From Candidatus Poseidoniaceae archaeon (lineage in GTDB: Archaea > Thermoplasmatota > Poseidoniia > Poseidoniales > Poseidoniaceae): a stretch of 32,000 bases of DNA. Shown here one piece after another: positions 4,903 through 24,004 of the stretch. Position numbers and translations under genes: made by a program. The DNA is taken from the NCBI GenBank assembly GCA_943789275.1, contig CALSTM010000001.1:210001-242000 (forward strand), read 5' to 3'. The notes under the pieces were generated by a model, which worked only from the letters and a program-made list of their open reading frames with translations, did not search any database and was not told where the DNA came from. Each line of letters starts with the position of its first letter. The stretch's first letter is position 1.

Positions 4903-4978
4903 GGGCGTTTAGCTCAGTTGGAAGAGTGCTTGGTTTGCAACCAAGATGTCGTGGGTTCAAATCCCACAACGTCCACCA
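4903..4978 (+). tRNA. tRNA-Ala (anticodon UGC), CCA encoded
   Basis: Manual cloverleaf: acceptor GGGCGTT/AACGTCC with the G3:U70 alanine identity pair, D arm GCTC-AGTTGGAA-GAGT, anticodon arm CTTGG-TTTGCAA-CCAAG, T arm GTGGG-TTCAAAT-CCCAC, discriminator A, then CCA (4976-4978). Confidence 0.9.
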
Positions 4979-5159
4979 CCCCTCACGGATTCAAACCCCG
5001 CGAACGCATTACTGCGATGCATGAGCAACGGAGATTTTGAACCCCATACGGTTTGGACGCACAACAATCATAGGTATTTTTCTACACTGTTGGTCAAGGC
5101 GTGTTGGCACAAAGTGACACGACAAATCTTCACCGACAAAAGTATGTAGGGAGCGTGAC

Positions 5160-5585
5160 TTGAGTCAATTGAGGGAGCTGACAACTATGGAGTTTGATTG
5201 TCCACTTTCTCAACAGGAGCAAGCATGGCTTGATGGCGGCATTTCCAAATTCAACACTGGTCGTTACTGGCACGCTCACGAGGATTGGGAGGAGATGTGG
5301 AAGTCACTCAAAGTGAGAGAAGTTGAACTGCGTTACATCCGAGGTATCCAAGGACTGATCCAAACGACTGCCCTGATGTTCCAGTATGAGCGACAAAAGT
5401 CGCGTGGCATCGTGAAGATGTGGTATAAATTGACCGAGAAAATTGGCACGCCCGAATCGCCCCTGTTTGAGAATCTGTGGTGTGTAGACATTCCCAAAAT
5501 GCTTCATGATGTTCTTCCCTTCCTTGCCGATGCAACTGCTGATGAGCCCACATGGGGGCTCAACCCAAATGCAGTACTCATCTGA
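5160..5585 (+). CDS. DUF309-family protein
   Basis: FNTGRYWHAHEDWEEMWK matches the DUF309 signature (FN.g.yfeaHE.lE.lW). The ORF-track start is TTG 5160; ATG 5187 (MEFDC...) is an alternative. Confidence 0.65.
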   Translation: MSQLRELTTMEFDCPLSQQEQAWLDGGISKFNTGRYWHAHEDWEEMWKSLKVREVELRYIRGIQGLIQTTALMFQYERQKSRGIVKMWYKLTEKIGTPESPLFENLWCVDIPKMLHDVLPFLADATADEPTWGLNPNAVLI

Positions 5586-5636
5586 AGGCGGATGTAAACA
5601 GAAAAGGTTAATGCAGGGTTATTTCTTAGTAAAATC

Positions 5637-6176
5637 ATGACTGTGAAGAATTTGGTGATGGTTCTCGTGATGACGTCAATGGTCTTCGCTGGTTGTATAA
5701 GTGACCTTACACCGTTTGGCGGAGAGCATGTGGGTACTTTTGATATCGATACCCTCGGTACAGGAACAGCTGAGTCGGATGATATGATTGTGGAATTAGA
5801 GTTGATAAACAGCACATCCCCAATTCAATTCAACGATGGAACAACAGCACAAGATGGAGAAGAACACTACAGATTCCGCCTTGTGGTAGGCGACATTGAT
5901 GACGACAGCAGCCCCGCTTACGAATGCAGGTTAGCATCGAATTCACCAGATGATTGCCTTCTTGTCGAGTCGGTTGCAGACGGAGTATGGGACGCTGGTG
6001 AACGAATCACGTTAAGAGAAAACAATGTCGACATATGCAGCGAAGGTTGTCGAATTCAATTGACAATAATGAACGGAGATATCACCACCGAACAGGAAGA
6101 GAATCTACAATATATCGCCCAGGAATCAATAGGTGGACCTATTGGGCACACAACGAATTTTTGGATGAGTCAATGA
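5637..6176 (+). CDS. Secreted or lipid-anchored hypothetical protein
   Basis: N-terminal hydrophobic signal ending in a lipobox-like VFAGC, followed by an acidic mature region with four further Cys. No family recognised. Confidence 0.5.
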   Translation: MTVKNLVMVLVMTSMVFAGCISDLTPFGGEHVGTFDIDTLGTGTAESDDMIVELELINSTSPIQFNDGTTAQDGEEHYRFRLVVGDIDDDSSPAYECRLASNSPDDCLLVESVADGVWDAGERITLRENNVDICSEGCRIQLTIMNGDITTEQEENLQYIAQESIGGPIGHTTNFWMSQ

Positions 6177-6232
6177 ATCAAACAACTCACAGGCTCAATG
6201 CACTGCGGCACAAAGGTCGACATTTACCCTTC

Positions 6233-6631
6233 TTATCCTGAACGGTATGCTTCAAGGCAATAGGCTGCATTGATTGCAGCAGCGAATGTCATCCATGCAA
6301 TGTATGGCCACACCAACATCGATGCGGTAGGGACGGTTGCGTACGTAAGGTAAGCGTACATAACGGTAAAAAGTATCATGAAGACCAACATTCCAAACGA
6401 GAGCAGGTACCGTTCGGAATTGAATACAGACGGCCAAGCAAGGTTGAGAAGAAGTTGTGCAATGAACAAGAAAAGAATCCATTTGCTGTGCTTCAATTGC
6501 TCTGATTGGTTAAGTACGGTGGATATACTCACCGCCATACAGGTATAGAGAACCGCCCATATCGGGGCGACGACCCAACCTGGAGGCTGGAAGAACGGTT
6601 CGTATTCTGAATCAAAGGTCATCGAGTTCAT
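6233..6631 (-). CDS. tspO: TspO/MBR family tryptophan-rich sensory protein (short form)
   Basis: PPGWVVAPIWAVLY, AQLLLNLAWPSVFN and WPYIAWMTFAAAINAAY match TspO conserved segments. The ORF begins right at the PPxW motif with an in-frame TAG 12 codons upstream, so canonical TM1 is absent. Confidence 0.7.
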   Translation of the reverse strand: MNSMTFDSEYEPFFQPPGWVVAPIWAVLYTCMAVSISTVLNQSEQLKHSKWILFLFIAQLLLNLAWPSVFNSERYLLSFGMLVFMILFTVMYAYLTYATVPTASMLVWPYIAWMTFAAAINAAYCLEAYRSG

Positions 6632-6860
6632 CTTGTGTTCATGGTGATACGCTATAATTATGTGCTACGGTTCATAATCCGGATTTCTTACATTTGACCT
6701 TCAGGAAACTTTACCGACAGGTTTTTTCTACGCCGATGGCATTGTAATTTTCTTCGCATTGAAGGCCAAAGCAAGGGAGGGTTTTACATTACGGTGGCGC
6801 AATGGGTTTTTTAGACACCCTTCTTAGTTTGAATCTGCATCATGAAGTGAAAAACATTCT

Positions 6861-6868
6861 ATTATAAC
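6861..6868 (+). promoter_or_regulatory. Putative TATA box (ATTATAAC) for the fasciclin gene; near-leaderless
   Basis: AT-rich octamer 23 nt upstream of ATG 6891, with no SD between them. Confidence 0.3.
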
Positions 6869-6890
6869 TCACTCGCCAATTTTCGTCGTT

Positions 6891-9365
6891 ATGAGAAAGA
6901 CGATTGTATTTTTGATGATGACCCTGCTTTTAGCCGCCAGCCTACCGCTCAATTCGAGCGCAGGACCGTCTGATGACATCCCCACAAACGCCGCAGGAAC
7001 AGGCGTACATGACTCATTGGTCGCTGCACTCGCCCATGCGGGTCTCGTCTCAACCCTCCAAGGGCCTGGGCCCTTCACCGTGTTCGCACCGACAGACCAG
7101 GCTTTCGCTGCTGCTGGAATCGACTTAGCCGATTTTGATACGCCCGAGGAAAACGCAACCCTCTCTGATATCCTGTTGCACCACGTCTACTCTGGTGAGG
7201 TTCAATCAAGCGCTGTTACTGACGGCATGATCGCAGAAATGGTGAACGGTGACAATGTGAAATTCGGAGTGAACGGGGCTACAGTGACCGTTGGAACGGC
7301 AACAGTAACAACCGCTGATGTCATCTCTTCAAACGGAATCATTCACGTTATCGATACCGTCTTGATGCCGCCCGTCGACATCCCAGCAACCGCTCAAAGC
7401 ACCACCATTCACGACACGTTGGTCAATGCCGTCATTCAGGCCGATCTCCTCACGACTCTCCAAAGTCCAGGGCCGTTCACCGTCTTCGCACCAACAGACC
7501 AAGCGTTCATCGATGCTGGTATCAACTTGGCAGCACTCGACACGCCTGAAGGTAAAGCAACGCTTTCCGACATCCTTCTCTACCACGTTGTCCCGTCTGA
7601 GGTTCCTGCCTCTGCAGTCACCGAATGTATGGTGGCTGATGCGGCGAATGGACAGCCTCTCGCCTTCACTGTGGGAGACGGCGTTATGGTCAACGGTGCC
7701 AATGTCACCATGACCGACGTCATTACCAGTAACGGACTTATTCACGTCATTGACAAAGTTCTAACTCCAAGCGACACACCAAACGATATTCCCCGAACTG
7801 CACAATGCACTGGCCTACATGATTCGCTGGTTGCAGGAGTGATACAAGCTGAATTGCTTGAAACTCTTCAAGGTCCAGGACCGTTCACGGTCTTCGCACC
7901 GACCGACCAAGCCTTCATTGATGCCGGGATTGATTTGGCAGCACTCGATACTCCCGAAGGCAAGGCTACACTTGCCGACATTCTTCTTTACCACGTTGTA
8001 GCCGGAGAGGTACCAGCAGCGAATGTTACTGATTGTATGTCCGCAACTGCCGCAAACGGTCAGCCCTTGGCGTTCACCGTTGATGGAACTGTTATGGTGA
8101 ACGGCGCTACTGTCATCCAAGCAGATGTCGGTACAAGCAACGGATTCATTCATGTTATCGACAAAGTGCTTACCCCAACCGATACGCCCAACGACATTCC
8201 ACGAACGGCACAATGCACCGGGATTCACGATTCTCTTGTTGCTGGGGTTATCCAAGCTGAACTTCTCGTGACGCTTCAGGGAACGGGACCGTTCACGCTG
8301 TTTGCACCGACGGACCAGGCCTTTGCTGATGCCGGAATCGACCTTGCGGCTCTCGATACTGCTGAAGGCAAGGCAGCGCTCACCGACATCTTGCTCTACC
8401 ACGTAATTGCTGGTCAAATTCCATCCACTGCAGTTACGGAGTGCCTCACAGCCAACACTGTCAACGGTAATCCTGTTGCCTTTACCGTAGGTGACAGCGT
8501 CATGATCAACGATGCTACCGTCACACTTGCTGATGTGAACACCAGTAACGGTGTCATCCACGTGATTGACAAGGTCTTGACACCGACCACTACACCAAAC
8601 GATGTTCCACGCACTGCACAATGCACCGGCATACACGACTCGTTGGTTGCCGGTGTCATTCAAGCAGGCCTTCTGGAAACCCTTCAAGGCCCTGGGCCAT
8701 TCACCGTTTTTGCTCCAACAGACCAAGCATTCACGGATGCAGGAATCGATTTGGCAGCACTTGATACTGCAGAAGGACAAGCGGCACTGAGCGATATTCT
8801 ACTCTACCACGTGGTTGCCGGTGAAGTTCCAGCAGCCAACGTCACCGACTGTATGACTGCTACTGCTGTAAACGGCAACCCACTCTCGTTCACCGTCGGC
8901 ACTTCTGTCATGGTCAACGGAGCAACCGTTACCGCAACAGATGTTGCGACAAGCAACGGCATCATCCACGTCATTGACAAGGTTCTATCACCAACCGAAA
9001 CTCCGAATGATATTCCTCGTACAGCTCAATGCACGGGGATTCACAACTCACTGGTTGCCGCCGTCATTCAAGCGGACTTGCTCGAGACGCTCCAAGGTCC
9101 AGGCCCGTTCACCGTGTTTGCACCAACGGACCAAGCGTTCACCGATGCAGGCATTGATTTGGGCGCTCTGGATACGCCAGAAGGTAAGGCAGCACTTGCC
9201 GACATTCTGCTCTATCACGTTGTAGCAGGTGATGTCCCAGCAGCCAATGTCACGGAGTGTATGACTGCAGACGCTGTCAACGGTCAACCGCTTTCGTTCA
9301 CTGTCGGAGATTCCGTCATGGTGAACGGCGCCACCGTCACATCTGCCGGATGTCAGCACCAGTAA
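6891..9365 (+). CDS. Fasciclin (FAS1) repeat surface protein, N-terminal fragment: signal peptide plus FAS1 domains 1-5 and most of domain 6, ended by a frameshift
   Basis: Signal peptide MRKTIVFLMMTLLLAASLP. FAS1 hallmarks recur every 136 aa: GPFTVFAPTD(Q)AF, LLYHVV and SNG(I/V)IHVIDKVL. The reading frame ends in the middle of domain 6 (…VNGATVTSAGCQHQ*). Confidence 0.9.
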   Translation: MRKTIVFLMMTLLLAASLPLNSSAGPSDDIPTNAAGTGVHDSLVAALAHAGLVSTLQGPGPFTVFAPTDQAFAAAGIDLADFDTPEENATLSDILLHHVYSGEVQSSAVTDGMIAEMVNGDNVKFGVNGATVTVGTATVTTADVISSNGIIHVIDTVLMPPVDIPATAQSTTIHDTLVNAVIQADLLTTLQSPGPFTVFAPTDQAFIDAGINLAALDTPEGKATLSDILLYHVVPSEVPASAVTECMVADAANGQPLAFTVGDGVMVNGANVTMTDVITSNGLIHVIDKVLTPSDTPNDIPRTAQCTGLHDSLVAGVIQAELLETLQGPGPFTVFAPTDQAFIDAGIDLAALDTPEGKATLADILLYHVVAGEVPAANVTDCMSATAANGQPLAFTVDGTVMVNGATVIQADVGTSNGFIHVIDKVLTPTDTPNDIPRTAQCTGIHDSLVAGVIQAELLVTLQGTGPFTLFAPTDQAFADAGIDLAALDTAEGKAALTDILLYHVIAGQIPSTAVTECLTANTVNGNPVAFTVGDSVMINDATVTLADVNTSNGVIHVIDKVLTPTTTPNDVPRTAQCTGIHDSLVAGVIQAGLLETLQGPGPFTVFAPTDQAFTDAGIDLAALDTAEGQAALSDILLYHVVAGEVPAANVTDCMTATAVNGNPLSFTVGTSVMVNGATVTATDVATSNGIIHVIDKVLSPTETPNDIPRTAQCTGIHNSLVAAVIQADLLETLQGPGPFTVFAPTDQAFTDAGIDLGALDTPEGKAALADILLYHVVAGDVPAANVTECMTADAVNGQPLSFTVGDSVMVNGATVTSAGCQHQ

Positions 9366-10233
9366 CGGTGTGATTCATGTTATCGACAAGGTATTGTCTC
9401 CAACAGACACGCCAAACGACATCCCCCGCACTGCACAATGCACCGGTATTCACGATTCTTTGGTCGCAGCAGTGGTACAAGCAGAGTTGCTGACCACATT
9501 GCAGGGAGATGGGCCATTCACCCTTTTCGCTCCAACCGACCAAGCGTTCATCGATGCCGGCATTGATTTGGCAGCATTGGATACCGCTGATGGTAAAGCT
9601 GCTCTTACGGACATCCTGCTTTACCACGTTGTTGCTGGAGCAGTCCCTTCCTCGGCAGTTACCGAGTGCATGTCGGCAAACGCCGTCAACGGTCAACCGC
9701 TCTGGTTCACCGTCGCAGACACCGTCATGGTCAACGGTGCCACCGTAACCTTGGCAGATGTGAACACAAGCAACGGCGTCATCCACGTCATCGATAAGGT
9801 ATTGACCCCCACCGATACACCAAACGATTTGCCTCGAACTGCTCAATGCACAGGTGTGCACAACTCACTGGTCGCAGCTGTAATTCAGGCTGAACTACTG
9901 GTCACACTCCAGGGTGAAGGGCCGTTCACGCTCTTTGCTCCAACGGACCAAGCATTTGCCGATGCTGGTATCGATTTGGCAGCATTGGACACCCCTGAAG
10001 GAAAGGCTGCATTGACGGATATTCTCCTCCATCACGTCTATTCAGGCGCTGTCATGAGTGCCAACATCACCGACGGAATGGTTGTACAGATGGTCAACGG
10101 CGACAACATTACGCTGACGGTCACCACCGGAATGAGTGCTTCAGTACGCATCGGAAACGCAACGGTTACCGGTGCTGATGTGATGACCTCCAACGGTATC
10201 ATCCACGTCATTGACAAGGTATTGATGCCTCCG
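6975..10233 (+). repeat. Coding tandem repeat: eight FAS1-domain units with a 408-nt period
   Basis: Unit starts (GAC/GAT ATT/ATC = D-I/V-P) are at 6975, 7377, 7785, 8193, 8601, 9009, 9418 and 9826. The spacings are 402, 408, 408, 408, 408, 409 and 408 nt. Confidence 0.9.
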
Positions 10234-10770
10234 GCTGAAGATGCAACAGACACGACCGATACGACAGGTCAGACAGACGGTGCAAGCGGTGATTCAGACG
10301 ATGAAGGCGGATTCCTATGGATTCTTATCGTTGTGATTTTGGTCCTTGGCGGTGGCGCAGGCGGATTGTTGTTCATGCGCAGCCGAAGTGGGGATGATGA
10401 TGCTTCGAAGAACTTCGTTCAGGGCGGATTGGAAAACCAATTGCAACCGATTTCAACCACGTCATATGCAGGGACTCAAGCAGCAGCTGCAACCGCATAC
10501 GCAACTGAACCCGTGCAGCAAACTCAGCAGTATCAGCAAGTTCAACAAACTCAACAGTACCAACCTGCACAGCAAGTCGCACAAGTTGCTCCAGTGACTC
10601 AAGTTGCTCAAGTTCAGCCGGTTCAGACTGTGGAAGTCATTCCACAACCTGCTGTTGCCGAACCTACAGTTCTGCGACAATGGACCGATGAAGCAGGTTA
10701 CACCTGGAGAGCAATGGACGACGGTAACACCTACTGGTGGACCGGAACTGAGTGGCAAAAGTACTCTTGA
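9370..10770 (+). CDS. Fasciclin repeat surface protein, C-terminal fragment: end of domain 6, domains 7-8, TM anchor and Q-rich tail. It continues 6891..9365 in the +1 frame
   Basis: It starts mid-domain at (V)IHVIDKVL, exactly the segment missing from the upstream ORF, and has no signal peptide of its own. A TM helix FLWILIVVILVLGGGAGGLLFM is followed by a Q/V/A/P-rich tail. Confidence 0.85.
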   Translation: MIHVIDKVLSPTDTPNDIPRTAQCTGIHDSLVAAVVQAELLTTLQGDGPFTLFAPTDQAFIDAGIDLAALDTADGKAALTDILLYHVVAGAVPSSAVTECMSANAVNGQPLWFTVADTVMVNGATVTLADVNTSNGVIHVIDKVLTPTDTPNDLPRTAQCTGVHNSLVAAVIQAELLVTLQGEGPFTLFAPTDQAFADAGIDLAALDTPEGKAALTDILLHHVYSGAVMSANITDGMVVQMVNGDNITLTVTTGMSASVRIGNATVTGADVMTSNGIIHVIDKVLMPPAEDATDTTDTTGQTDGASGDSDDEGGFLWILIVVILVLGGGAGGLLFMRSRSGDDDASKNFVQGGLENQLQPISTTSYAGTQAAAATAYATEPVQQTQQYQQVQQTQQYQPAQQVAQVAPVTQVAQVQPVQTVEVIPQPAVAEPTVLRQWTDEAGYTWRAMDDGNTYWWTGTEWQKYS

Positions 10771-10776
10771 GTGAGT

Positions 10777-11340
10777 CTAAAGATTGTTCAGAATTTGACT
10801 GCAGGTCTTCACGGTGCAAAATTCACCGTGAAGGCTTGTTAGGGCTGTAGTATGGATGAGATCAGCATCGATCATCTCGCCATCCGGTGATTCTCGTGGG
10901 AACGTAGCGCATGCATCCGAGGCCAGTTCAACATCAAAGCCGAGGTTACCCGCCATTCTCACCGTAGTGGATACGCAGTGGTTGGTTGTGAGCCCTGCTA
11001 TGACCAAACTTGTCGTTCCGTTTTCTCGCAGGTAAGCTTCGAGTTCGGTACCTATGAAACCGCTGTTGACGTTTTTGACAAACTCCTTTTCACCGTTCAT
11101 TGGAATTGCCCAGTCATAGAACTCGAATCCTTGCGTTTCAGGTCTCAGGGGGCTACCCTCTTCTGTGGATGAATGGCGTACATGGACAATGTTGTGATGA
11201 CCAAGCCTCCAATGATGAATCAACGATTGGGTATTTATCTCAAAATGAGGGTTGTTCCGGATTCCCCATTTCGGGTCATCAAACCCCTTTTGACAATCAA
11301 TGAGTATCAGCGCAGTATTTTCATATCCAGTCACGACCAT
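10777..11340 (-). CDS. Isochorismatase-family cysteine hydrolase
   Basis: ALILIDCQKGF (catalytic Asp region), LVIAGLTTNHCVSTT (catalytic Cys) and a typical length of 187 aa. Confidence 0.85.
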   Translation of the reverse strand: MVVTGYENTALILIDCQKGFDDPKWGIRNNPHFEINTQSLIHHWRLGHHNIVHVRHSSTEEGSPLRPETQGFEFYDWAIPMNGEKEFVKNVNSGFIGTELEAYLRENGTTSLVIAGLTTNHCVSTTVRMAGNLGFDVELASDACATFPRESPDGEMIDADLIHTTALTSLHGEFCTVKTCSQILNNL

Positions 11341-11363
11341 GCTTCAAACTCCTTGTTTTGCTG

Positions 11364-11825
11364 TTATAAAATCCATAGTTTGAGTACTCGCGAATAGAAC
11401 ATGTAGGAAAAGATGAGAAGTGTAGGAGTGATCCAAGCAAGATAGAGTGTTTTGTTGATTGGTTGTAATTGTTTGTCTCCGTTGCGAAGGGCCTTGATCG
11501 ATGCCCACAGGAGGTAGACGAAGGCTCCGTAGATAAGCGGTGAGCCTGGATTGAAGTCCAATGCACTTGGAACGTCGAAGTGAGTGATGGCGACAAATCC
11601 ACGCGACATGCCGCAAAAAGGGCATTCGGTTCCGGTGAGGTGGTATATTGGACAGAGGCTCATTCCGTCGACTCTGCCGTGCGGAAGAACTGCTGAAACC
11701 ACCAGTGCGCCGCTGGTAACAGCGGCAGTAATGGATGCAGCATTGATTCCCGGCCATTTCATTGTACGGACGTTGAGATTCGGGTTAATGTCCTTTTTGT
11801 CGGCAGAACCATTATAATGCGACAT
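11364..11825 (-). CDS. DUF2752-family membrane protein
   Basis: CPIYHLTGTECPFCGMSRGF...NPGSPLIY matches the DUF2752 CP..G..CP.CG.(T/S)R signature and is followed by TM segments. The true start may be ATG 11762 (MKWPG...). Confidence 0.65.
   Translation of the reverse strand: MSHYNGSADKKDINPNLNVRTMKWPGINAASITAAVTSGALVVSAVLPHGRVDGMSLCPIYHLTGTECPFCGMSRGFVAITHFDVPSALDFNPGSPLIYGAFVYLLWASIKALRNGDKQLQPINKTLYLAWITPTLLIFSYMFYSRVLKLWIL
11811..11818. promoter_or_regulatory. Palindromic TATA-like box ATTATAAT between the divergent DUF2752 and TM2 genes
   Basis: It is self-complementary. It lies 22 nt upstream of ATG 11840 (+) and 49 nt upstream of ATG 11762 (-). Confidence 0.3.
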
Positions 11826-11839
11826 GCAGAGCGGGGGTT

Positions 11840-12083
11840 ATGCAACCACAAGGCATGGAACAAGCAGCAATGACATCAGACAAAGATTGGACAGCACTCC
11901 TGCTCCTCTCTCTCTCTCCTCGGAGGGCTCGGAGCGGATCACTTTTACACCGGGAAGACCGGAACAGGAATTCTCAAGCTCATCACTCTAGGCGGATGTA
12001 CAATCTGGGCTCTTATCGACTTGATCATGGTCATCACTGGTGGATTCAAGGACTCCAACGGCCTTCCAGTCACCAACAAGTGA
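11840..12083 (+). CDS. TM2-domain protein interrupted by a +1 frame change inside a (CT)6 tract. The track ORF 11840..12094 is a frame chimera
   Basis: Frame A gives M(11870)TSDKDWTALLLLSLS. The frame +1 from 11919 gives LLGGLGADHFYTGKTGTGILKLITLGGCTIWALIDLIMVITGGFKDSNGLPVTNK* (TGA 12081-12083), which is a textbook TM2 domain. That second frame has no start codon after its upstream TGA (11871-11873). Confidence 0.75.
11906..11918 (+). repeat. (CT)6C dinucleotide microsatellite at the TM2 frameshift site
   Basis: CTCTCTCTCTCTC read directly from the sequence. Confidence 0.95.
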
Positions 12084-12276
12084 TTCGCTCATAGAGCACA
12101 TCCACGATTGAACGGTTCTGCTGTGGCTTCGCCATAGCACCCGGATTCGACGTCACATCAGTCAAAAACTGGTTTCCAGGGAACGCACTCACAGGTGTAT
12201 TTCTCTCTTCCAGAGCTCGAATCTCGAACCTGAAGCATTCATCATATGACGCCTGGGCGGTCATTCAATTGATGAC

Positions 12277-13632
12277 TCAATCTCGGTTTGAACGATTGTT
12301 CTGGTTACCGCGGCTGTTTTGATTTCCGCGGTTATTACGGGAACGGTTGCCTCCGCGTGGGCGGCCCGATTGTTCTCCACCTGATGAACGGTTGTTGTTC
12401 TGCCTTCCTCGGTTTGAGTTTTGATGACGAGGACGCTTTTTGGTTCCAGACTTTTCTTTGATTTTCCCTGGTTTTTGCCCCGGTTTGGGGATTGCTCCAA
12501 TAAAATGGAATGGGTGTGAACTTTCGACAGGAATTTCTTTTCCGATCAGCTGCTGGATACCAACCAAATACCCGCTTTCCGAATCGTCACAGAAAGCGTA
12601 AGCAATACCGCTGCGGCCTGCACGGGCAGTTCTTCCAATACGGTGGACGTAACTTTCTGGTTCATTCGGCAAATCGTAATTGAAAACGTGCGTGATACCA
12701 TCGACATCGATTCCTCTGCTGGCAATGTCGGTCGCAACAAGAATAGGTATGGAACCGTCTTTGAATCCTGCTAATGCCCGAGTTCTGGCGCCTTGGCTCT
12801 TGTTACCGTGAATGGCGGCTGCTGCGATGTTGCTCTGGTCCAATTGCTTGACCAGCCGATTTGCACCGTGTTTGGTTCGTGTGAATACAATTCCACACTT
12901 TACCCGCTCATCCTTGATGAGTTGCACCAGCAATCTCCGCTTGTCTGCTTTTCTCAAGAACATGATTCTCTGTTCAATTCGGTCAACTGTCATTTCTTGT
13001 GGACTGACGTCGACCATGACTGCATTGTTCAAAAATGAACCAGCGAGCTTAGCGATCGATTTTGGCATTGTTGCGCTGAACAGCAGATTTTGACGCTTGT
13101 TTGGAAGGAGCTTGAGAACTTTCTCAATGTCTCGAATGAATCCCATGTCGAGCATTCGGTCTGCTTCATCCAGGACGAAGAATTCGACTTTGGTGATGTC
13201 TACAAAACCTTGCCCAATGAGGTCAAGAAGTCGCCCGGGCGTAGCAACGAGAATATCAAGTCCCTTTTGCAGAGCGCGAACTTGTGGATTTTGTTTAACA
13301 CCGCCAAAAATAACCCGATGTCGAATGTCCATGTGTTCACTGTAGGCAGCAAACCTTTCATCGATTTGTGCAGCCAGTTCACGGGTCGGTGAAAGAATAA
13401 GGGCGCGAATATATCGCTTTCCTTGTGGCCTTTTTCGGCCCATGATTTGCAGAACAGGTAAGGCAAATGCTGCTGTTTTACCGGTTCCGGTTTGAGCAAC
13501 ACCAAGCACATCTCGACCTTCAAGCAAGGGCGGAATAGATTGTTCTTGTACGGGTGTGGGTGAAGTATAGCCTTCTGAGGCTACAGCTTTGAGAAGTGTC
13601 TCGGAGAGTCCGAGTGATTGGAAATCGGTCAT
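12277..13632 (-). CDS. DEAD-box ATP-dependent RNA helicase (RhlE/DeaD-like) with an R/G/N-rich C-terminal tail
   Basis: Q motif GYTSPTPVQ, motif I AQTGTGKTAAF, Ia PTRELA, II DEAD, III SAT, VI HRIGRTARAG. The tail is RGGNRSRNNRGNQNSRGNQNNRSNRD. The track start is GTG 13668; ATG 13632 (MTDFQSLGL...) fits the family N-terminus better. Confidence 0.93.
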   Translation of the reverse strand: MTDFQSLGLSETLLKAVASEGYTSPTPVQEQSIPPLLEGRDVLGVAQTGTGKTAAFALPVLQIMGRKRPQGKRYIRALILSPTRELAAQIDERFAAYSEHMDIRHRVIFGGVKQNPQVRALQKGLDILVATPGRLLDLIGQGFVDITKVEFFVLDEADRMLDMGFIRDIEKVLKLLPNKRQNLLFSATMPKSIAKLAGSFLNNAVMVDVSPQEMTVDRIEQRIMFLRKADKRRLLVQLIKDERVKCGIVFTRTKHGANRLVKQLDQSNIAAAAIHGNKSQGARTRALAGFKDGSIPILVATDIASRGIDVDGITHVFNYDLPNEPESYVHRIGRTARAGRSGIAYAFCDDSESGYLVGIQQLIGKEIPVESSHPFHFIGAIPKPGQKPGKIKEKSGTKKRPRHQNSNRGRQNNNRSSGGEQSGRPRGGNRSRNNRGNQNSRGNQNNRSNRD

Positions 13633-13757
13633 GTTGTATCCCTCCAGTGAACCATCGTATCGGTCCACTGCATGCAGACCTCAATTCTCTTTGCCTAAAT
13701 ACCCGATTGACGATATACGGGCCACACCCCGTGAATCGCTGCATTCGTTGAGCGCCG

Positions 13758-15242
13758 TCACAGAATCGGTTGGTTTCGTAACCATTCTAAATCTGAAATG
13801 TAGAGTTGGCGAATGTCATCAAGACCGAGAACCAGCATAGCAAGCCGTTCGAGGCCCATTCCCCATGCGAGTACCGGTGAAGAGATGCCTAAAGGTTCGG
13901 TAACTTCAGGTCGGAAAATGCCTGCTCCACCCAGTTCCAACCACTTTCCTCTCCATTTGACTTCAATTTCGAGGCTTGGTTCTGTGTAAGGGAAATAGGC
14001 AGGGCGGACTCGAACTTCTGGATAGCCCATCTTTGCATAGAACGTTTTGAGCGTGGTAACAAGCATTTGCAAGTTTGCTCCTTCTTCCATGATGATTCCT
14101 TCAATTTGGTGGAACTCAGGGAGATGTGTTCTGTCAATTGCTTCCTTACGGAACACCCGGTCGACCGAAAAGACACGGCATGCTTCGGTTGGGTTCTCTG
14201 CAAGATATTGGATGGTGTTGACCGTTGTATGTGTGCGCAACAGCCCTTTTTCTGAGGTTTCGGCAGAGAACGAACCACCCCAACCCACCGAGCCGGTGTC
14301 TCCACCGTGTTCATGGATCGCACCCCAAGCATCCGTGAGGTGTTTTGGAAGCTCAATTGATTGAGGGTTTTCCAAGTAGAACGTGTCTTGCATTTCTCGT
14401 GCTGGATGGTCTTGTGGAATGAACAGAGCATCCATGTTCCATCCAGCAGTTTGAACATAGTCATCGACCAATTCTGAGAATCCCATCTCAAGGAATATGC
14501 TGCGTACACGCTCAATCAATGCCTGCATAGGATGGCTGCGTCCAGTTCTCGGTGTTGAGGATTCAAGCGTCACATCGAACGGTCTGTATTCGGCATCTTT
14601 CCATTCATCCGATTGCAGAAGTTCACTGGTAATCTCAGTAATGAATTGTTTTTCGACAAGTGAATCTGAAGCAACCGCCTGCCCGGCACTGGTCAGCGTC
14701 CATGTTCGTGTTGTCGATACAACCGATTCAATCAGGCCACGGCGTGATTTGAAATGCTCCAACATGTCGCTATCCAGCGAATCTTCAGGTTGTGGTAACG
14801 ATTGAATGAATGCAGTTCTCTCCGCAATTTGTGTCGTGACTTGCTCTGGATTTTCCGCGGCAAAGGCGCCATTGGACATTTGAACGCCCAACCGCTTCAT
14901 TAGTCCAACACCTGGCCCCGCCTCATGACGCTCAAAATTCGATTGGAGATTGGCCATTGATGGCTCTTCATGCGTTGAAATCCAACTCCATAATCGCGCT
15001 TCAAGCAGCCCACTCTCCTTTGCCTTGACGCCTTCAGTTGCGAGCCGCACGAGTGACGAACTGTTTTCCTTTGTTTTTACAAGCCCGCCGTTGGTAAGGC
15101 CATGTCCGGCTCCGACGGCGACCGCTTGGTCCTTCCATTGGCACGCTTCAAGAATTTCAGTGAGAGACCATTCATGCCCAGGCTTCTCTTGCATTCGGCG
15201 CAGCATTCTGCGCTCGGGGTTGAGCAAGGAGTCTGCGTCCAT
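13758..15242 (-). CDS. pheS: Phenylalanine--tRNA ligase alpha subunit (archaeal/eukaryal type)
   Basis: HPAREMQDTFY, the FRPEVTEPLGI...PVLAWGMGLERLAML class II motif 3, and RTHTT. The 611-aa track ORF extends upstream over the neighbouring gene, so ATG 15242 (or TTG 15257) is the plausible start. Confidence 0.9.
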   Translation of the reverse strand: MDADSLLNPERRMLRRMQEKPGHEWSLTEILEACQWKDQAVAVGAGHGLTNGGLVKTKENSSSLVRLATEGVKAKESGLLEARLWSWISTHEEPSMANLQSNFERHEAGPGVGLMKRLGVQMSNGAFAAENPEQVTTQIAERTAFIQSLPQPEDSLDSDMLEHFKSRRGLIESVVSTTRTWTLTSAGQAVASDSLVEKQFITEITSELLQSDEWKDAEYRPFDVTLESSTPRTGRSHPMQALIERVRSIFLEMGFSELVDDYVQTAGWNMDALFIPQDHPAREMQDTFYLENPQSIELPKHLTDAWGAIHEHGGDTGSVGWGGSFSAETSEKGLLRTHTTVNTIQYLAENPTEACRVFSVDRVFRKEAIDRTHLPEFHQIEGIIMEEGANLQMLVTTLKTFYAKMGYPEVRVRPAYFPYTEPSLEIEVKWRGKWLELGGAGIFRPEVTEPLGISSPVLAWGMGLERLAMLVLGLDDIRQLYISDLEWLRNQPIL

Positions 15243-15327
15243 GAGGCGTCGTGTCAATTCATGCCCTTCAATTCTATGGAGCCCCGAGGTCTTTTTGTGG
15301 ACTTTTGAAGCGATCGTTATTTGCCGC

Positions 15328-15702
15328 TTACTCTTCTTCTTCCCAGAGTGAAACAGCGCATGCTGGGCAAGTAAATTGACTTGGTCTATCCCCATCGAGT
15401 AACTCGATATGCCCACATGGTCCGCACATGACGGTGCACTTCTTCGGCTCATCAAGCGTGATGTCCACTCTGTACATGACACGTCCAGCATCAGGAAGTT
15501 GTGCTGAGTCCGGTTTCCAATTGGAAATTTCTTCGTCAGACATTCCCTTTTCAGTACGAATCGACATACCAAGTATGAACAAAACGATGCCACTTATCCC
15601 TATTGTTCCAGCGATGGACATGATGTTGGCAACGGTGAAAAAAGCCCCTGCGACAATGCATATTGCCCCTGCAATGAGGAAATTCTCTCTCGTCCCGGGC
15701 AT
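15328..15702 (-). CDS. Small membrane protein with a C-terminal zinc ribbon
   Basis: Two predicted TM helices (FLIAGAICIVAGAFFTV; GTIGISGIVLFILGM) followed by CGPCG...CPAC. It lies 9 nt downstream of the aminotransferase stop. Confidence 0.5.
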   Translation of the reverse strand: MPGTRENFLIAGAICIVAGAFFTVANIMSIAGTIGISGIVLFILGMSIRTEKGMSDEEISNWKPDSAQLPDAGRVMYRVDITLDEPKKCTVMCGPCGHIELLDGDRPSQFTCPACAVSLWEEEE

Positions 15703-15711
15703 CGTGATTCC

Positions 15712-17049
15712 TCACTTGAGTGCGTGTGCTAACGCTTCGGCGACGCGAGGAATGTGTTCCAACGGGACTGCACATAGGCCGATGCGAACCCCACCGGTGA
15801 GCGGAACGAGGTACACTTCTTGCTCAGCACAGGCCTCTGCAATCTTCTGTGGATCGTCATGTTCCAACCACGCAAAGAAGCCATCATGCGTTGGATTGAG
15901 GGGGACGTTCAGTTTTTCACATGACTCTTTGAGAAGGTTCCTGCGGTTCACAAGCAGGGACTGTAAGCGGTCCCTCTCAAGACCCCATGCCTTGCCACCT
16001 GCACTCGATGCATGCATTTCACTGACGGTATATTGTGCTACTCGAGGTGCTGCTGACCATGTCTGCCGTCCAGTAACCCCCATCACCATGTCGATTTTTT
16101 CGGTGACTTCTGCGTCGGGATGGATACTGACCAGAGCACCCGTTCGCAGGCCATAGATGGTGTGAGACTTCGAGAGCGAAAGAGCAAAGGTGATGAGGAA
16201 ATTTTCAGTCCATGGCCAACCCTCTTCAATTGATTCAAGAATGGTTTGGCTCCATCCATGAGGTTCTTCTGCATACAGATGATACGCAGAATCCAAGAGT
16301 AAAGTGTGGCCAACATTCTCGTTGGCAGAAGCGCTTTCCATCACCGCTTCAAGCACGGCCATTCGTCCTGCAGGCGTCAGAGAAAGTCCTGTAGGGTTAT
16401 GTGCTGGATCATTGAGCCAAATCATGACTTTGTCTTGGGTCGAACAGAGTGAGGCAAGTTTGGCTTTGAAATCTTCAATATCAACAAATGGATACGGCGA
16501 GTCATCGATTTTCGGTAACAGTGCATAGACTTCTGAACCCAAGTCACAGCCCGACAGGAATCCCTTGTAAGGGCCCCAGTGTCGGTCTCGAAGGAGTACT
16601 TTGTCGCCTCGGTTCGCAAAATTGGCTGCTGCGAGGAACAGTGCGCCAGAGCCACCCGGCGTTGCAGTTGCGGTCATCGAGATGCCGCACGCATCCATGG
16701 CGTCACGGTGCTCACCGAGAGCAAGAGTTTTGGCCAGATCGAGGAATGCTGGAAGTCCTTTCAACGGCGCATATGCGGCAATTTCGACTGGAGGTGCTGC
16801 CCGAATCGCTTCATCAACCACTTTGTTGATGGCGAGTGTTCCGTCGTCCTCAAGCAGTGCTCCAATGGTCCCATTTACGGCGTCAGCACCGTTTTTGACC
16901 GCTTCTTGGTACCGAGCCCACCATCCAAAGATGGTATCGTTACCGACCTTGGACTGGGAGTAGGGGTTGAGTAATCCTGCACCGGCATCGTGGTTCATGC
17001 CTCTCCGAATGCGGGCGTGTTCTTTGACTTGCCCCTTCCGCTGGTTCAA
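15712..17049 (-). CDS. Class I aspartate/aromatic aminotransferase (AspC/TyrB family)
   Basis: TATPGGSGAL, NDPAHNPTG, LLLDSAYH, the SLSKSHTIYGLRTGALV PLP-lysine motif, and a C-terminal GGVRIGLCAV. The start could be the internal ATG 16998. Confidence 0.9.
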   Translation of the reverse strand: MNQRKGQVKEHARIRRGMNHDAGAGLLNPYSQSKVGNDTIFGWWARYQEAVKNGADAVNGTIGALLEDDGTLAINKVVDEAIRAAPPVEIAAYAPLKGLPAFLDLAKTLALGEHRDAMDACGISMTATATPGGSGALFLAAANFANRGDKVLLRDRHWGPYKGFLSGCDLGSEVYALLPKIDDSPYPFVDIEDFKAKLASLCSTQDKVMIWLNDPAHNPTGLSLTPAGRMAVLEAVMESASANENVGHTLLLDSAYHLYAEEPHGWSQTILESIEEGWPWTENFLITFALSLSKSHTIYGLRTGALVSIHPDAEVTEKIDMVMGVTGRQTWSAAPRVAQYTVSEMHASSAGGKAWGLERDRLQSLLVNRRNLLKESCEKLNVPLNPTHDGFFAWLEHDDPQKIAEACAEQEVYLVPLTGGVRIGLCAVPLEHIPRVAEALAHALK

Positions 17050-17130
17050 AGAAATGCTTCGAATCCATGTCGTTTTCTTGTTGTTCTCTCCGTTTCATTC
17101 ATCAAGGGTAAGTGTCTCGGGCAGTTTGTC

Positions 17131-17203
17131 GCCTGTGTAGCATAGCTGGTAGTGCATCGGATTTGTAATCCGAAGGCCGGGGGTTCGAGTCCCTCCGCAG
17201 GCT
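17131..17203 (+). tRNA. tRNA-Thr (anticodon UGU), no encoded CCA
   Basis: Manual cloverleaf: acceptor GCCTGTG/CGCAGGC, D arm GCAT-AGCTGGTA-GTGC, anticodon arm TCGGA-TTTGTAA-TCCGA, variable AGGCC, T arm GGGGG-TTCGAGT-CCCTC, discriminator T. Confidence 0.9.
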
Positions 17204-17258
17204 CCTCACATTCACTGTACGTGAAAAATCCGATAAGCCTCCATCCAGTCGGTTTTTC

Positions 17259-17711
17259 ATGCGTCCGTTTCACCTTGCGTTTCCCGTTACGGATTTAGAC
17301 CAAACAGAACGATTCTATGTTGATGTGCTCGGGTGTGCAATTGGTCGTCGAACAGAGCACACCATCAATTTCAATTTTCATGGCCATCAAATCGTCTGTC
17401 ATTTGGTTCAGAAGATGCCAGATTATACTGACGGTGGACGGGTTGATGGTAAGCAAGTACCACCGTTTCATTTCGGTTTGGTAATGGAGTATGCGCAGTG
17501 GCATTCATTCCGAGACCAACTGCTCGCAAAGGAGGTTGATTTTCGACTCAAACCTCATATTCGTTATCCTGGGAAGGTTGGAGAGCAGGCGACGCTGTTC
17601 CTGAACGATCCGTCTGGAAATGCGATTGAATTCAAATCGTTCAAGGATGACGAACGGTTGTTTACGACCGCTGCCGGTTCTGAACATGAAGCAGGTGGAG
17701 GGGTTCTGTAA
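17259..17711 (+). CDS. VOC/glyoxalase-family protein
   Basis: The N-terminus FHLAFPVTDLDQTERFYVDVLGC is the typical first beta-alpha-beta-beta-beta module of the vicinal oxygen chelate fold. DPSGNAIEF occurs in the second half. Confidence 0.8.
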   Translation: MRPFHLAFPVTDLDQTERFYVDVLGCAIGRRTEHTINFNFHGHQIVCHLVQKMPDYTDGGRVDGKQVPPFHFGLVMEYAQWHSFRDQLLAKEVDFRLKPHIRYPGKVGEQATLFLNDPSGNAIEFKSFKDDERLFTTAAGSEHEAGGGVL

Positions 17712-17747
17712 GCGAATGCTCAAAGTCATGGATTCTTTGGGAGTGGT

Positions 17748-18626
17748 ATGGTGGCCCAACGACTGGACGGAAAAGCTTGTGCAGCAAAGGTCGAAGAAGA
17801 ACTCATTCAAAGGATTGCAGCATGCTTAGAGAAGAAGACTCAACCTCATTTGGCAGTCGTGATTGTTGGCGATGACCCGGCGAGCCATGTCTATGTTGGC
17901 TCGAAAGTCCGAGCCTGTGAGCGACTCGGTATTCGCAGTACTCATATTGAATTGCCGGCAAACGCTACCGAAGATGAAGTTCGTCAAACCATCGAATCGC
18001 TCAATAAACAAGATGGTTTGCACGGGATTCTTGTTCAATCGCCTCTTCCTAATCACATGGACGAAGAAGGTCTCACAGACCTCATCGACCCATCAAAGGA
18101 CGTCGATGGGTTCCATCCACAAAACTTAGGCCGTTTGGTTCAAGGTCGAATGGATGGGATGTTGCCATGTACGCCAAGCGGAGTCATGCGAATGTTGTCG
18201 TGGGCCGGGATTGAAACGGAAGGTAAAACTGCGGTGGTGTTGGGTCGTTCGAGAATAGTTGGGATGCCGCAATCGTTACTTCTGAGTGCGAAAGGTGTTG
18301 ATTCTACGGTCACAGTTGCTCATTCGAGAACCAAAGATACTCAGGCTCTTTGCTCAAGTGCGGACATTATCATCGCTGCGGTAGGTCGTCCGGAAATGGT
18401 GACTGCAGACTGGGTTAAAGAAGGCGCAGTTGTGGTTGATGTTGGCATCAATCGCGTTGATGACGACACCCGTGAACGTGGATGGCGGCTTGCAGGTGAC
18501 GTTCATCCCGATGTGGCCCTAAAGGCTGCATGGCTTTCACCGGTACCCGGCGGAGTCGGACCAATGACCATCGCCATGCTGATGGAAAATACAGTTCGTG
18601 CTGCAGAACTTTCGCTTTCGGTTTAA
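17748..18626 (+). CDS. folD: Bifunctional methylenetetrahydrofolate dehydrogenase/cyclohydrolase
   Basis: LDGK...PHLAVVIVGDDPASHVYVGSKVRACERLGI, DVDGFHP, GRSRIVGMP and VPGGVGPMTIAMLMENTV. Confidence 0.95.
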   Translation: MVAQRLDGKACAAKVEEELIQRIAACLEKKTQPHLAVVIVGDDPASHVYVGSKVRACERLGIRSTHIELPANATEDEVRQTIESLNKQDGLHGILVQSPLPNHMDEEGLTDLIDPSKDVDGFHPQNLGRLVQGRMDGMLPCTPSGVMRMLSWAGIETEGKTAVVLGRSRIVGMPQSLLLSAKGVDSTVTVAHSRTKDTQALCSSADIIIAAVGRPEMVTADWVKEGAVVVDVGINRVDDDTRERGWRLAGDVHPDVALKAAWLSPVPGGVGPMTIAMLMENTVRAAELSLSV

Positions 18627-18660
18627 CAACGCTCATAGGTTGGCAACGACAGCAGCATGT

Positions 18661-19512
18661 ATGGACCCGAAAGCACCACGCCTTGCGACAGCATCGCTCG
18701 TGTTGGGTTTAATCGCAGCTGTATGTGCCATTGTCAGTTCTGTTCTGAAACTCGGCTTTGTCGATGGATTTGGTACCGAAGAAATGGCTATGGTCATTGT
18801 CTCAACGGTTCTTTTCATCGTCTCGTTCTTGGCATCAAGAGAGCGTGAGCAAATGGAAATGATATCTGCGCCGACACTGGAAGAGCAATTTTCTGCGATC
18901 GAATCAATGCCAACACAATTCCGCTCTTCTTCTACGAATGTTGATTCAATTGAATTTGAAACAAAACCGGCTGAAGCCTCGCAACCGCAAGCCATGGCCA
19001 CCTCTCTTCTTGGAGACTTCAAGGATGTACAACCGGAAAATGTTACCGATGCCTTTGCAACGTTGTCAACCGGGATGGGTTCTGTCGGAACACAACACGT
19101 CGAGATGAATCCAGCACCCCACCGTCACACACAGCAAGGCCGTGAAGTGTTCAAATCCTCTCGCTCGACCGAAGACACCTTCGACCGACTGGAAGTTCAG
19201 AACATCCCGCTCCCCGGGCAAGTGAATACCAAGCCAACTCCTGAACTCCCATGGCAAACGTCGAATCGTGAGTTCCAAACTGAAGGTTCTACACAGGTCT
19301 CTCTACCAACACAAATAACGCAACCGGTGCCTCAAACCGAAGTACAGGTGGAACCCATCGCTGAATCACAGATGCGCATTGACCACTTACCGAGCATGCC
19401 GAACCTCGATGAGTTGTTTGAAGCACCTCCAGCCCAAACCGTCTCACATCTTCCAGAACAACCCAGCACCCCCTCTCTTCCGGACTTACCAAACCTCGAC
19501 GACTTGTTTTAG
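18661..19512 (+). CDS. Hypothetical membrane-anchored protein with a long disordered P/Q/E/T-rich region and a duplicated C-terminal PNLD(D/E)LF motif
   Basis: Starting at ATG 18661 avoids overlap with folD. It has two N-terminal TM helices followed by low-complexity sequence. No family recognised. Confidence 0.5.
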   Translation: MDPKAPRLATASLVLGLIAAVCAIVSSVLKLGFVDGFGTEEMAMVIVSTVLFIVSFLASREREQMEMISAPTLEEQFSAIESMPTQFRSSSTNVDSIEFETKPAEASQPQAMATSLLGDFKDVQPENVTDAFATLSTGMGSVGTQHVEMNPAPHRHTQQGREVFKSSRSTEDTFDRLEVQNIPLPGQVNTKPTPELPWQTSNREFQTEGSTQVSLPTQITQPVPQTEVQVEPIAESQMRIDHLPSMPNLDELFEAPPAQTVSHLPEQPSTPSLPDLPNLDDLF

Positions 19513-24001: not shown

Positions 24002-24004
24002 GTC

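What the first reader, a model, noticed from the sequence alone, without database searches (positions are those of the whole stretch)
11840..12083. TM2-domain gene frameshifted inside a (CT)6 microsatellite; the ORF-track protein is a frame chimera
The listed 84-aa ORF reads MQPQGMEQAAMTSDKDWTALLLLSLS, then nonsense (PRRARSGSLLHREDRNRNSQAHH...). Shifting +1 after the CT run gives LLGGLGADHFYTGKTGTGILKLITLGGCTIWALIDLIMVITGGFKDSNGLPVTNK*. Joined to DKDWTALLLLSLS, this is a complete canonical TM2 domain (two TM helices with the G.LG.H.FY.G motif). The +1 frame has no start codon of its own. Adding one CT unit, or removing one base or two CT units, restores a 71-81 aa protein. Dinucleotide tracts inside 5' coding regions are the classical substrate for slipped-strand ON/OFF switching. 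That would be notable in an archaeon, but a sequencing indel is equally possible. The fasciclin gene 2.5 kb upstream also carries a one-base excess.
Basis: seen in the sequence. Interest (0 to 1): 0.65.

Follow-up and report, generated by a model that had tools for sequence, protein, structure and literature searches.

The report
Broken TM2 gene: probable assembly artefact
A small, conserved membrane-protein gene of a marine archaeon looks broken by one extra C, but comparison with about 20 near-identical genomes points to an assembly error from mixed strains, not an on/off switch.

Summary
The 84-aa ORF at 11840-12094 is a frame chimera. The +1 frame from 11919 to 12083 encodes the rest of a TM2-domain protein. 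The repaired protein hits Pfam TM2 over the full profile (63.6 bits, E 2e-17). The organism is a Poseidoniaceae (Marine Group II) archaeon.

The phase-variation reading is not supported.
- Orthologues are 80 aa. Eighteen of 20 conspecific contigs read (CT)5-TTCC, codons TCT CTC TTC CTC.
- The window differs by a single C at 11916, not by a CT unit.
- Deleting that C gives a protein that exists exactly on another 611-kb contig.
- No CT-unit length variant was found anywhere.
- Other Poseidoniales species have no CT run at this site.

The +1 in the fasciclin gene at 9341 is a hybrid of two intact haplotypes. It recurs on four different flanking SNP backgrounds. Two other contigs carry a different +1 in the same TM2 tract, and it equals both alleles of a known C/T SNP placed in tandem. 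One-base indels in this contig series are almost all insertions inside conserved ORFs.

Most likely (about 0.75) the frameshift is a consensus artefact of a strain-mixed, probably long-read, assembly. A real private frameshift is about 0.2 and a real switch about 0.04. Only reads can settle it.

The parts
11840..11914 (+). 5' part of the TM2-domain gene, codons 1-25 (MQPQGMEQAAMTSDKDWTALLLLSL), in the frame of the ATG at 11840
   Evidence: The N-terminus M1-M11 is nearly invariant in 24 orthologues.
11906..11918 (+). (CT)6 followed by C; the only dinucleotide run of 5 or more units in the window
   Evidence: Intact conspecific alleles read (CT)5-TTCC here.
11916..11916 (+). The extra C that shifts the frame. 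It sits between the two T of codon 26 (TTC, Phe) of the intact allele.
   Evidence: It is the only length difference from the 18 conspecific contigs with an intact TM2 gene. Deleting it gives P0115, found exactly on a 611-kb contig.
11919..12083 (+). 3' part of the TM2-domain gene in the +1 frame (LGGLGADHFYTGK...PVTNK plus stop), codons 27-80 of the intact protein
   Evidence: From 11917 to the stop at 12083 the DNA is identical to L021, so there is no decay downstream of the shift.
11364..11825 (-). DUF2752 gene, the divergent neighbour of the TM2 gene. Its true start is probably Met22 at 11762.
   Evidence: Pfam PF10825 at 53.5 bits. The pair is conserved in 22 Poseidoniales loci and, in tandem, in many bacteria. 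The sister lineage has 132-aa gene calls.
11811..11818 (+). ATTATAAT, a TATA-like box about 25 nt upstream of the ATG at 11840. It suggests a leaderless TM2 mRNA.
   Evidence: Read. The spacing rule for archaeal promoters is from general knowledge (inference).
9341..9341 (+). Extra base in the fasciclin gene that splits a 1292-aa ORF into 824 + 466 aa. It is a hybrid of haplotype A (AC-TCTGG) and haplotype B (AC-ATTGC).
   Evidence: The same +1 occurs in 8 of 20 other contigs on four different flanking SNP combinations.

Best explanation
The locus is an ordinary, conserved 80-aa TM2-domain membrane-protein gene of a Poseidoniaceae archaeon. The protein has two transmembrane helices joined by a short loop with a DHF motif. 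The gene is paired with a divergent DUF2752 gene.

The extra C at 11916 is most likely not in the organism's DNA. It is probably a consensus or polishing artefact of a metagenome assembly built from a mixture of nearly identical strains. The assembly is probably long-read, Flye-style.

Proposed mechanism: where co-occurring strains differ by a SNP or a multi-base change in low-complexity sequence, reads align with paired gaps. The consensus then accepts the 'insertion' half and rejects the 'deletion' half, so both alleles end up in tandem and the ORF gains one base.

Shown:
- the +1 and its exact position;
- the intact allele in relatives;
- the both-alleles-in-tandem structure at the fasciclin site and in the TM2 tract of two other contigs;
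- the insertion bias of one-base indels in this contig series.

Inferred:
- that the window's own C arose the same way;
- that the assemblies are long-read.
For: 1. The +C is unique to the window among 21 conspecific contigs (99.4-99.9% identical). Eighteen others read CTCCTCTCTCTCTTCCTC.
2. The same TM2 haplotype (G11894, G11962) without the C exists on contig L021 and encodes P0115.
3. The fasciclin +1 at 9341 in the same window is a hybrid of two intact haplotypes. It occurs on A..A, B..B, B..A and A..mixed flanking SNP backgrounds in 8 of 20 other contigs. Homologous recombination cannot produce this; per-column consensus of mixed reads can.
4. Two other contigs (L117, L121) have a different +1 in the same TM2 tract, TCT[CT]TCTTCC. 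This is exactly the C allele (Leu25) and the T allele (Phe25) of a SNP in tandem. Both alleles occur intact elsewhere, the T allele in three short-read assemblies.
5. L018 has +C exactly where L020 has a 9-nt insertion. L013 has two +C around a SNP.
6. In this contig series I counted at least 9 distinct 1-nt insertion events against 1 deletion, all inside conserved ORFs. The more divergent L020 has only intergenic 1-nt indels and an in-frame 9-nt one.
7. The 9-mer CTCTCTTCC occurs 3 times in the intact 20-kb reference. Two of the three sites carry a private 1-nt indel at the TT: +C in the window, -T in L021.
8. There is no decay downstream of the shift, and the partner DUF2752 gene is intact.
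9. The gene is conserved at 80 aa across the order.
Against: - The partner allele needed for a both-alleles-in-tandem origin of the window's own C was not found. It would be F26L (CTC) or F26S (TCC) on this background, and neither is in the 15-billion-protein collection. The only SLLLGG alleles found use different codons (TCA CTT CTC) in a sister lineage.
- The window is otherwise clean. It has no indels against four relatives over 14005-32000 and only two 1-nt indels over 3623-22065. It is not a generally noisy assembly.
- Real mutations also favour low-complexity tracts.
- No reads were available, and the sequencing platform could not be identified.
Confidence: 0.75

Rival explanations
1. 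This is a genuine, recent, strain-private frameshift. One lineage of this Poseidoniaceae population acquired a single C insertion in the CT-rich part of the first transmembrane helix. It now carries a TM2 null allele, a young pseudogene, with no regulatory meaning.
For: - The sequence as given carries the shift.
- No partner allele for a merge artefact was found.
- The rest of the window is indel-free against relatives.
- Low-complexity tracts are natural indel hot spots.
- The window has a few other rare alleles (6848, 11014, 12222), so it is a distinct haplotype.
Against: - The allele is seen on one contig only (P0125 on 1 contig).
- The same haplotype occurs intact elsewhere.
- The gene is strongly conserved, and nothing has decayed downstream of the shift.
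- The same contig carries a frameshift that looks like an artefact, 2.5 kb away.
- The insertion-only bias in this contig series is opposite to the deletion bias of real prokaryotic mutation. That bias is general knowledge and was not tested here.
Confidence: 0.2
2. This is a contingency locus. The CT-rich tract is a real hypermutable site, and recurrent +1 changes switch the TM2 protein OFF and back ON in the population.
For: - The tract lies in the 5' coding region and is the longest dinucleotide run in the window.
- Three of 21 conspecific contigs carry a +1 in this 13-nt tract, through two different insertions.
- CT repeats of 6-10 units in a 5' coding region do drive switching of H. pylori sabA (PMC2715451).
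Against: - No allele differs by a CT unit. The changes are +C and +T.
- The ON allele has only an imperfect (CT)5.
- The (CT)7 ON product is absent from 15 billion proteins.
- No other Poseidoniales species has a repeat at this site.
- The +T allele is explained as two SNP alleles in tandem.
- OFF alleles are seen only in one series of large contigs. Every short-read contig fetched is intact (L002, L125-L127), although those were fetched through their intact protein, so that comparison is biased.
- L121 has three scattered insertions in the gene, which is not tract-limited switching.
Confidence: 0.04
3. This is programmed ribosomal frameshifting. Ribosomes shift by +1 or -2 on the CUCUCU run and make a full-length TM2 protein from the shifted gene.
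For: A dinucleotide run lets a tRNA re-pair after a 2-nt slip (inference only). The downstream frame is intact.
Against: The frameshift is not conserved. Orthologues and 18 of 20 conspecific contigs encode the protein in one frame. No stimulatory element was looked for or noticed.
Confidence: 0.01

Closest known systems
TM2-domain proteins (Pfam PF05154; bacterial YozV-type small proteins; metazoan TM2D1-3 / almondex)
   Same: The repaired protein matches the full TM2 profile. It has two hydrophobic helices joined by a short loop with D-H-F at the position of the DRF motif described for TM2D proteins (PMC8714088).
   Different: It is a minimal 80-aa protein with no signal peptide or extracellular domain. 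It has DHF instead of DRF. Its function in prokaryotes is unknown. In the window, the ORF is interrupted.
CT-dinucleotide phase variation in 5' coding regions of Helicobacter pylori outer-membrane protein genes (sabA; PMC2715451)
   Same: A CT run lies in the 5' coding region that encodes a hydrophobic segment. A (CT)6 allele is out of frame.
   Different: In sabA, the alleles differ by whole CT units (6, 7, 8, 9, 10). About half of strains are in frame, and mixtures exist within a strain. Here the change is a single C, the in-frame allele is an imperfect (CT)5, no unit variants exist, and the tract is not conserved.
Frameshift artefacts from collapsing strain heterogeneity during consensus or polishing of metagenome assemblies
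   Same: One-base insertions sit at sites where co-occurring haplotypes differ, and both alleles are present in tandem. This is the case for fasciclin 9341 and for the TM2 tract in L117/L121. The insertions recur across assemblies of one series and show mosaic flanking SNPs.
   Different: For the window's own C at 11916, the second allele has not been observed. The platform and pipeline of the assemblies could not be established.

Membership tests
TM2 domain family (PF05154) | Profile match above the curated gathering score over the whole domain | tested here: met
   The repaired protein scores 63.6 bits against a cut-off of 27.9, E 2e-17, profile 2-51 of 51. The unrepaired chimera has no hit.
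TM2 domain family (PF05154) | Two transmembrane helices joined by a short loop carrying a D-R/H-F motif | tested here: met
   The alignment of 25 sequences has invariant D34 H35 F36, G29, L31, G32, G39 and K40, with hydrophobic stretches around residues 17-33 and 43-66. The DRF motif is described in PMC8714088.
TM2 domain family (PF05154) | Uninterrupted reading frame | tested here: not met
   In the window, one extra C at 11916 splits the gene. The frame is intact in 18 of 20 conspecific contigs.
Simple-sequence-repeat phase-variable (contingency) gene | Repeat tract inside the 5' coding region or promoter | tested here: met
   The tract at 11906-11918 covers codons 23-27 of an 80-codon gene.
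Simple-sequence-repeat phase-variable (contingency) gene | Alleles differ by gain or loss of whole repeat units | tested here: not met
   The differences are +C (window) and +T (L117, L121). No change of 2 or 4 nt occurs among 21 conspecific contigs. The (CT)7 product is absent from the protein collection.
Simple-sequence-repeat phase-variable (contingency) gene | Repeat tract maintained in relatives | tested here: not met
   In the 17 other Poseidoniales loci where the site could be read, the gene has no dinucleotide run of 3 or more units there. The run comes from the codon choice CTC CTC TCT CTC TTC in one species.
Simple-sequence-repeat phase-variable (contingency) gene | Mixture of tract lengths within one strain or sample (read level) | not testable with these tools
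   No reads were available. Two JGI metagenome scans for the flanks found nothing.
Programmed ribosomal frameshift gene | Frameshift site conserved among orthologues | tested here: not met
   All orthologues and 18 of 20 conspecific contigs are in one frame.
Haplotype-merge consensus artefact | The inserted base equals the alternative allele of a segregating variant at that position (both alleles in tandem) | tested here: inconclusive
   Met for fasciclin 9341 and for the TM2 tract of L117/L121. For the window's C at 11916, the required F26L or F26S allele was not found.
Haplotype-merge consensus artefact | Reads do not contain the inserted base | not testable with these tools
   No read data were available.

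The most novel reading that the evidence does not exclude
The CT-rich stretch encoding the first transmembrane helix could be a genuine mutational hot spot in this Marine Group II archaeon. It would repeatedly generate +1 OFF alleles (3 of 21 contigs, two different insertions), giving contingency-like loss and regain of a conserved TM2 membrane protein. That would be a first example of repeat-associated phase variation in a planktonic archaeon.
Probability: 0.04. Interest if true: 0.6.

Novelty: not a real feature. Interest (0 to 1): 0.08.

Why it matters
The biological interest is small. The gene is an ordinary, conserved TM2-domain gene, and the apparent switch is most likely not in the DNA.

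The practical value is a warning. The window's contig is recorded in NCBI and ENA. Several sister contigs, at least two of them also held in NCBI, carry +1 'frameshifts' at sites where co-occurring strains differ. These will be annotated as pseudogenes and can be misread as phase variation, pseudogenisation or programmed frameshifting.

If the frameshift were real and reversible, it would be a rare case of repeat-associated switching in archaea. The evidence here gives that little room.

Tried and rejected
1. Exact look-up of the 84-aa chimera with the look-up of encoding contigs found nothing, twice. The listing of cluster members shows it on a single 630,584-bp contig, which I take to be the window's own.
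2. Two scans of JGI metagenome contigs, using the flanks of the tract and a variable gap, were meant to give an unbiased distribution of tract lengths. Both returned 0 matches.
3. Searches for the source project or platform by accession (ERZ10646, ERZ1064, JAOGAA, CALTMP, GCA_028143885, GCA_943845165, MDA9156286) found no paper. A keyword search for Poseidoniales with Flye gave nothing I could link. 'Long-read assembly' therefore remains an inference from the contig names (contig_N, scaffold_N) and sizes of 0.4-1.0 Mb.
4. I tested whether the SLLLGG alleles (P0116, P0123) are the second haplotype behind the window's C. They belong to a sister lineage with codons TCA CTT CTC and many other SNPs, so they do not supply the needed allele.
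5. Exact look-ups of SLL and SLS alleles on the three close backgrounds found none in the collection.
6. I checked partial or odd-length homologues (P0093, P0124, P0089 and others) for chimeras at the tract. None has one. P0124 is a stop-codon loss, and P0088 has scrambled residues near the C-terminus on a different contig.
7. Programmed frameshifting was considered and rejected because the shift is not conserved.

Full report
**Observation.** ATG at 11840 opens an 84-aa ORF (11840-12094) that begins MQPQGMEQAAMTSDKDWTALLLLSLS and then runs into unrelated residues. A (CT)6 run followed by C lies at 11906-11918. The +1 frame reads SLLGGLGADHFYTGKTGTGILKLITLGGCTIWALIDLIMVITGGFKDSNGLPVTNK and stops at 12081-12083. 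That frame has a stop at 11871-11873 and no start codon before the tract. The 81-aa protein repaired by adding one CT matches Pfam TM2 (PF05154) over profile positions 2-51 of 51, at 63.6 bits and E 2e-17. The chimera matches nothing. (CT)6 is the only dinucleotide run of 5 or more units in the window, against 0.03 runs of 6 or more expected.

**Organism and gene.** A homology search with the repaired protein returned 114 clusters. The closest are named Candidatus Poseidoniaceae / Poseidoniales, that is Marine Group II archaea. Nearly all are 80 aa and uninterrupted. The alignment shows a strongly conserved small protein:
- a nearly invariant N-terminus MQPQGMEQAAMTSDKDW;
- two hydrophobic helices;
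- invariant G29, L31, G32, D34, H35, F36, G39 and K40.

DHF sits where metazoan TM2D proteins have the DRF loop motif (PMC8714088).

**What the frameshift is at the DNA level.** I fetched DNA for 20 conspecific contigs that cover the gene, 99.4-99.9% identical to the window apart from L020 at 98.9%. Eighteen read CTC CTG CTC CTC TCT CTC TTC CTC GGA, which is (CT)5 followed by TTCC. The window differs by a single C at 11916, inserted between the two T of the Phe26 codon. This turns (CT)5-T into (CT)6. The event is +1 nt, not a gain or loss of a CT unit.

Deleting C11916 gives a protein (P0115) that exists exactly on another 611-kb contig, L021. That contig shares the window's two SNPs in the gene, G11894 and G11962. 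The chimera itself is on record on one contig only, of 630,584 bp in NCBI and ENA, presumably the window's source. The (CT)7 product and a Ser26 variant are absent from the 15-billion-protein collection.

In the 17 other Poseidoniales loci where the site could be read there is no dinucleotide run of 3 or more units. The run is a by-product of codon choice in this one species. Downstream of the shift, from 11917 to the stop at 12083, the window is identical to L021.

**Is the window a noisy assembly?** No. Over 14005-32000 it has no indels and only 6-12 mismatches against four relatives. Over 3623-22065 it has exactly two 1-nt length differences from the intact consensus, the TM2 C and the fasciclin base. 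Both break conserved ORFs.

**The fasciclin frameshift is a hybrid of two haplotypes.** Two intact haplotypes exist at 9326-9348:
- A: AAC GGC GCC ACC GTC AC-T CTG GCG;
- B: AAT GGT GCT ACT GTC AC-A TTG CCT.

The broken contigs read ACATCTG, which is the A of haplotype B plus the TC of haplotype A. This same +1 is found in the window and 8 of 20 other contigs, seven by alignment and L006 by its gene calls. The flanking SNPs come in four combinations: A on both sides, B on both sides, B then A, and A then mixed. Homologous recombination keeps register and cannot create the extra base. Independent insertions of the other haplotype's base at exactly the polymorphic position on both backgrounds are implausible. 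A per-column consensus of mixed reads, aligned as an insertion plus a deletion, explains it directly.

**The same signature in the TM2 tract of other contigs.** I retrieved contigs through the neighbouring isochorismatase gene, which is unbiased with respect to TM2 state. This gave 10 large contigs, and two of them (L117 and L121) lack a TM2 gene call. Both read TCT[CT]TCTTCC. The intact Leu25 allele has C at that position. An intact Phe25 allele, otherwise identical over the ~95 nt compared, has T there in three independent short-read assemblies, L125-L127. So these frameshifts are the two SNP alleles in tandem. L121 has two further 1-nt insertions in the gene.

Other private indels fit the same picture:
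- L018 has +C exactly where L020 has a 9-nt in-frame insertion.
- L013 has two +C flanking a SNP.
- L021 lacks a T at window position 12208.

The L021 deletion and the window's +C both fall on the TT of the 9-mer CTCTCTTCC. That 9-mer occurs only three times in the intact 20-kb reference. In this contig series I count at least nine distinct 1-nt insertion events against one deletion, all inside ORFs. The more divergent L020 shows only intergenic 1-nt indels and an in-frame 9-nt one. Real prokaryotic mutation is biased towards deletions, and frameshifts in conserved genes are purged; this point is general knowledge and was not tested here.

**Conclusion on mechanism.** The best explanation is that the extra C is a consensus artefact of a strain-mixed assembly and that the real gene is intact. 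The assembly is probably long-read: contigs are named contig_N or scaffold_N and are 0.4-1.0 Mb (inference). I give this about 0.75.

The weak point is that the second allele needed for a both-alleles-in-tandem origin of this particular C was not found. It would be Leu26 CTC or Ser26 TCC on this background. The only SLLLGG alleles use other codons in a sister lineage.

A genuine, very recent private frameshift remains possible at about 0.2. Phase variation gets about 0.04:
- no unit-length variants exist;
- the ON tract is short and imperfect;
- the tract is not conserved;
- the one other OFF allele is explained as an allele merge;
- in the documented CT-repeat system, H. pylori sabA, alleles differ by whole CT units and ON and OFF are both common (PMC2715451).

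Programmed frameshifting is excluded for practical purposes, because relatives encode the protein in one frame.

**Comparison with known systems and novelty.** The gene is a member of the TM2 family on all sequence criteria except the interrupted frame. It is not a member of the contingency-locus class, because three of four testable defining features fail. The remaining value is as a data-quality flag for public records.

**Dead ends.**
- Two JGI metagenome scans for an unbiased tract-length distribution returned nothing.
- Literature searches could not identify the sequencing project or platform.
- The look-up of encoding contigs could not locate the chimera.

**By-product.** TM2 and DUF2752 form a widely conserved gene pair. 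The two genes are divergent in all 22 testable Poseidoniales loci. In 30 of 57 bacterial TM2 loci a DUF2752 gene lies close by: directly downstream on the same strand in 27, upstream and divergent in two, and about 1.5 kb downstream in one. The bacteria span many phyla, and six hits were confirmed by Pfam. No paper in the library mentions DUF2752.

Noticed in passing
window 11364-11825 (-) and 11840-12083 (+); loci L026-L105: TM2 and DUF2752 form a conserved gene pair. The two genes are divergent, with start codons 14-77 nt apart, in all 22 testable Poseidoniales loci. In 30 of 57 bacterial TM2 loci a DUF2752 homologue lies close by: 27 directly downstream on the same strand, two upstream and divergent, one about 1.5 kb downstream. 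The bacteria include Chloroflexota, Acidobacteriota, Actinomycetota, Bacteroidota, Cloacimonadota and Clostridia. Six hits were confirmed as PF10825. No paper in the library mentions DUF2752. This suggests a two-component membrane module of unknown function.
   Followed up: partly
window 9326-9348 (fasciclin gene 6891-10770): The 1292-aa fasciclin-repeat gene is split 824 + 466 aa by an extra base at 9341. The site is a hybrid of two intact haplotypes. The same +1 recurs in 8 of 20 other contigs on four flanking SNP combinations, which indicates a consensus artefact of mixed strains.
   Followed up: yes
L117 (ERZ10646082 contig_18532) and L121 (ERZ10646634 contig_11491), TM2 gene; equivalent to window 11909-11915, ~12021 and ~12034: Two other public contigs have a different +1 in the same tract, TCT[CT]TCTTCC, which equals both alleles of the Leu25/Phe25 SNP in tandem. 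L121 has two more 1-nt insertions in the gene.
   Followed up: yes
window 12203-12211; L021 10363-10370: L021 lacks one T in CTCTCTTCC at window position 12208. This is the same 9-mer as the intact TM2 tract. Two of the three copies of this 9-mer in 20 kb carry a private 1-nt indel at the TT. It is either a motif-specific error or a hot spot.
   Followed up: partly
window 12070-12264 (-): A 64-aa ORF overlaps the 3' end of the TM2 gene and is called as a gene in most conspecific contigs. It has no Pfam hit on record, is not called in L020, L021 or the sister lineage, and has a higher SNP density than TM2. It is probably not a real gene.
   Followed up: no
window ~12395-12409 (3' end of the DEAD-box helicase gene 12277-13668, -): The low-complexity C-terminal tail of the DEAD-box helicase varies in frame by 6-18 nt among conspecific contigs, giving products of 451-457 aa.
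   Followed up: no
window ~5003-5186; L015, L016, L019 ~1500-3100: A strain-variable insertion of about 1.3-1.8 kb, with two unannotated ORFs (149 aa and 262-309 aa), lies between the adenylosuccinate synthetase gene and the DUF309 gene in some contigs. It is absent from the window.
   Followed up: no
window 11811-11818: ATTATAAT lies about 25 nt upstream of the TM2 ATG, which fits an archaeal TATA box for a leaderless mRNA. It falls inside the 153-aa DUF2752 ORF. That gene therefore probably starts at Met22 (11762), as in the 132-aa calls of the sister lineage.
   Followed up: no
P0088 (JGI, 643-kb contig) and P0124 (ENA, 2.6-kb contig): Other odd TM2 alleles exist in public data. P0088 has a scrambled stretch near the C-terminus that returns to frame, as if from two compensating shifts. 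P0124 has lost its stop codon and is 88 aa.
   Followed up: no
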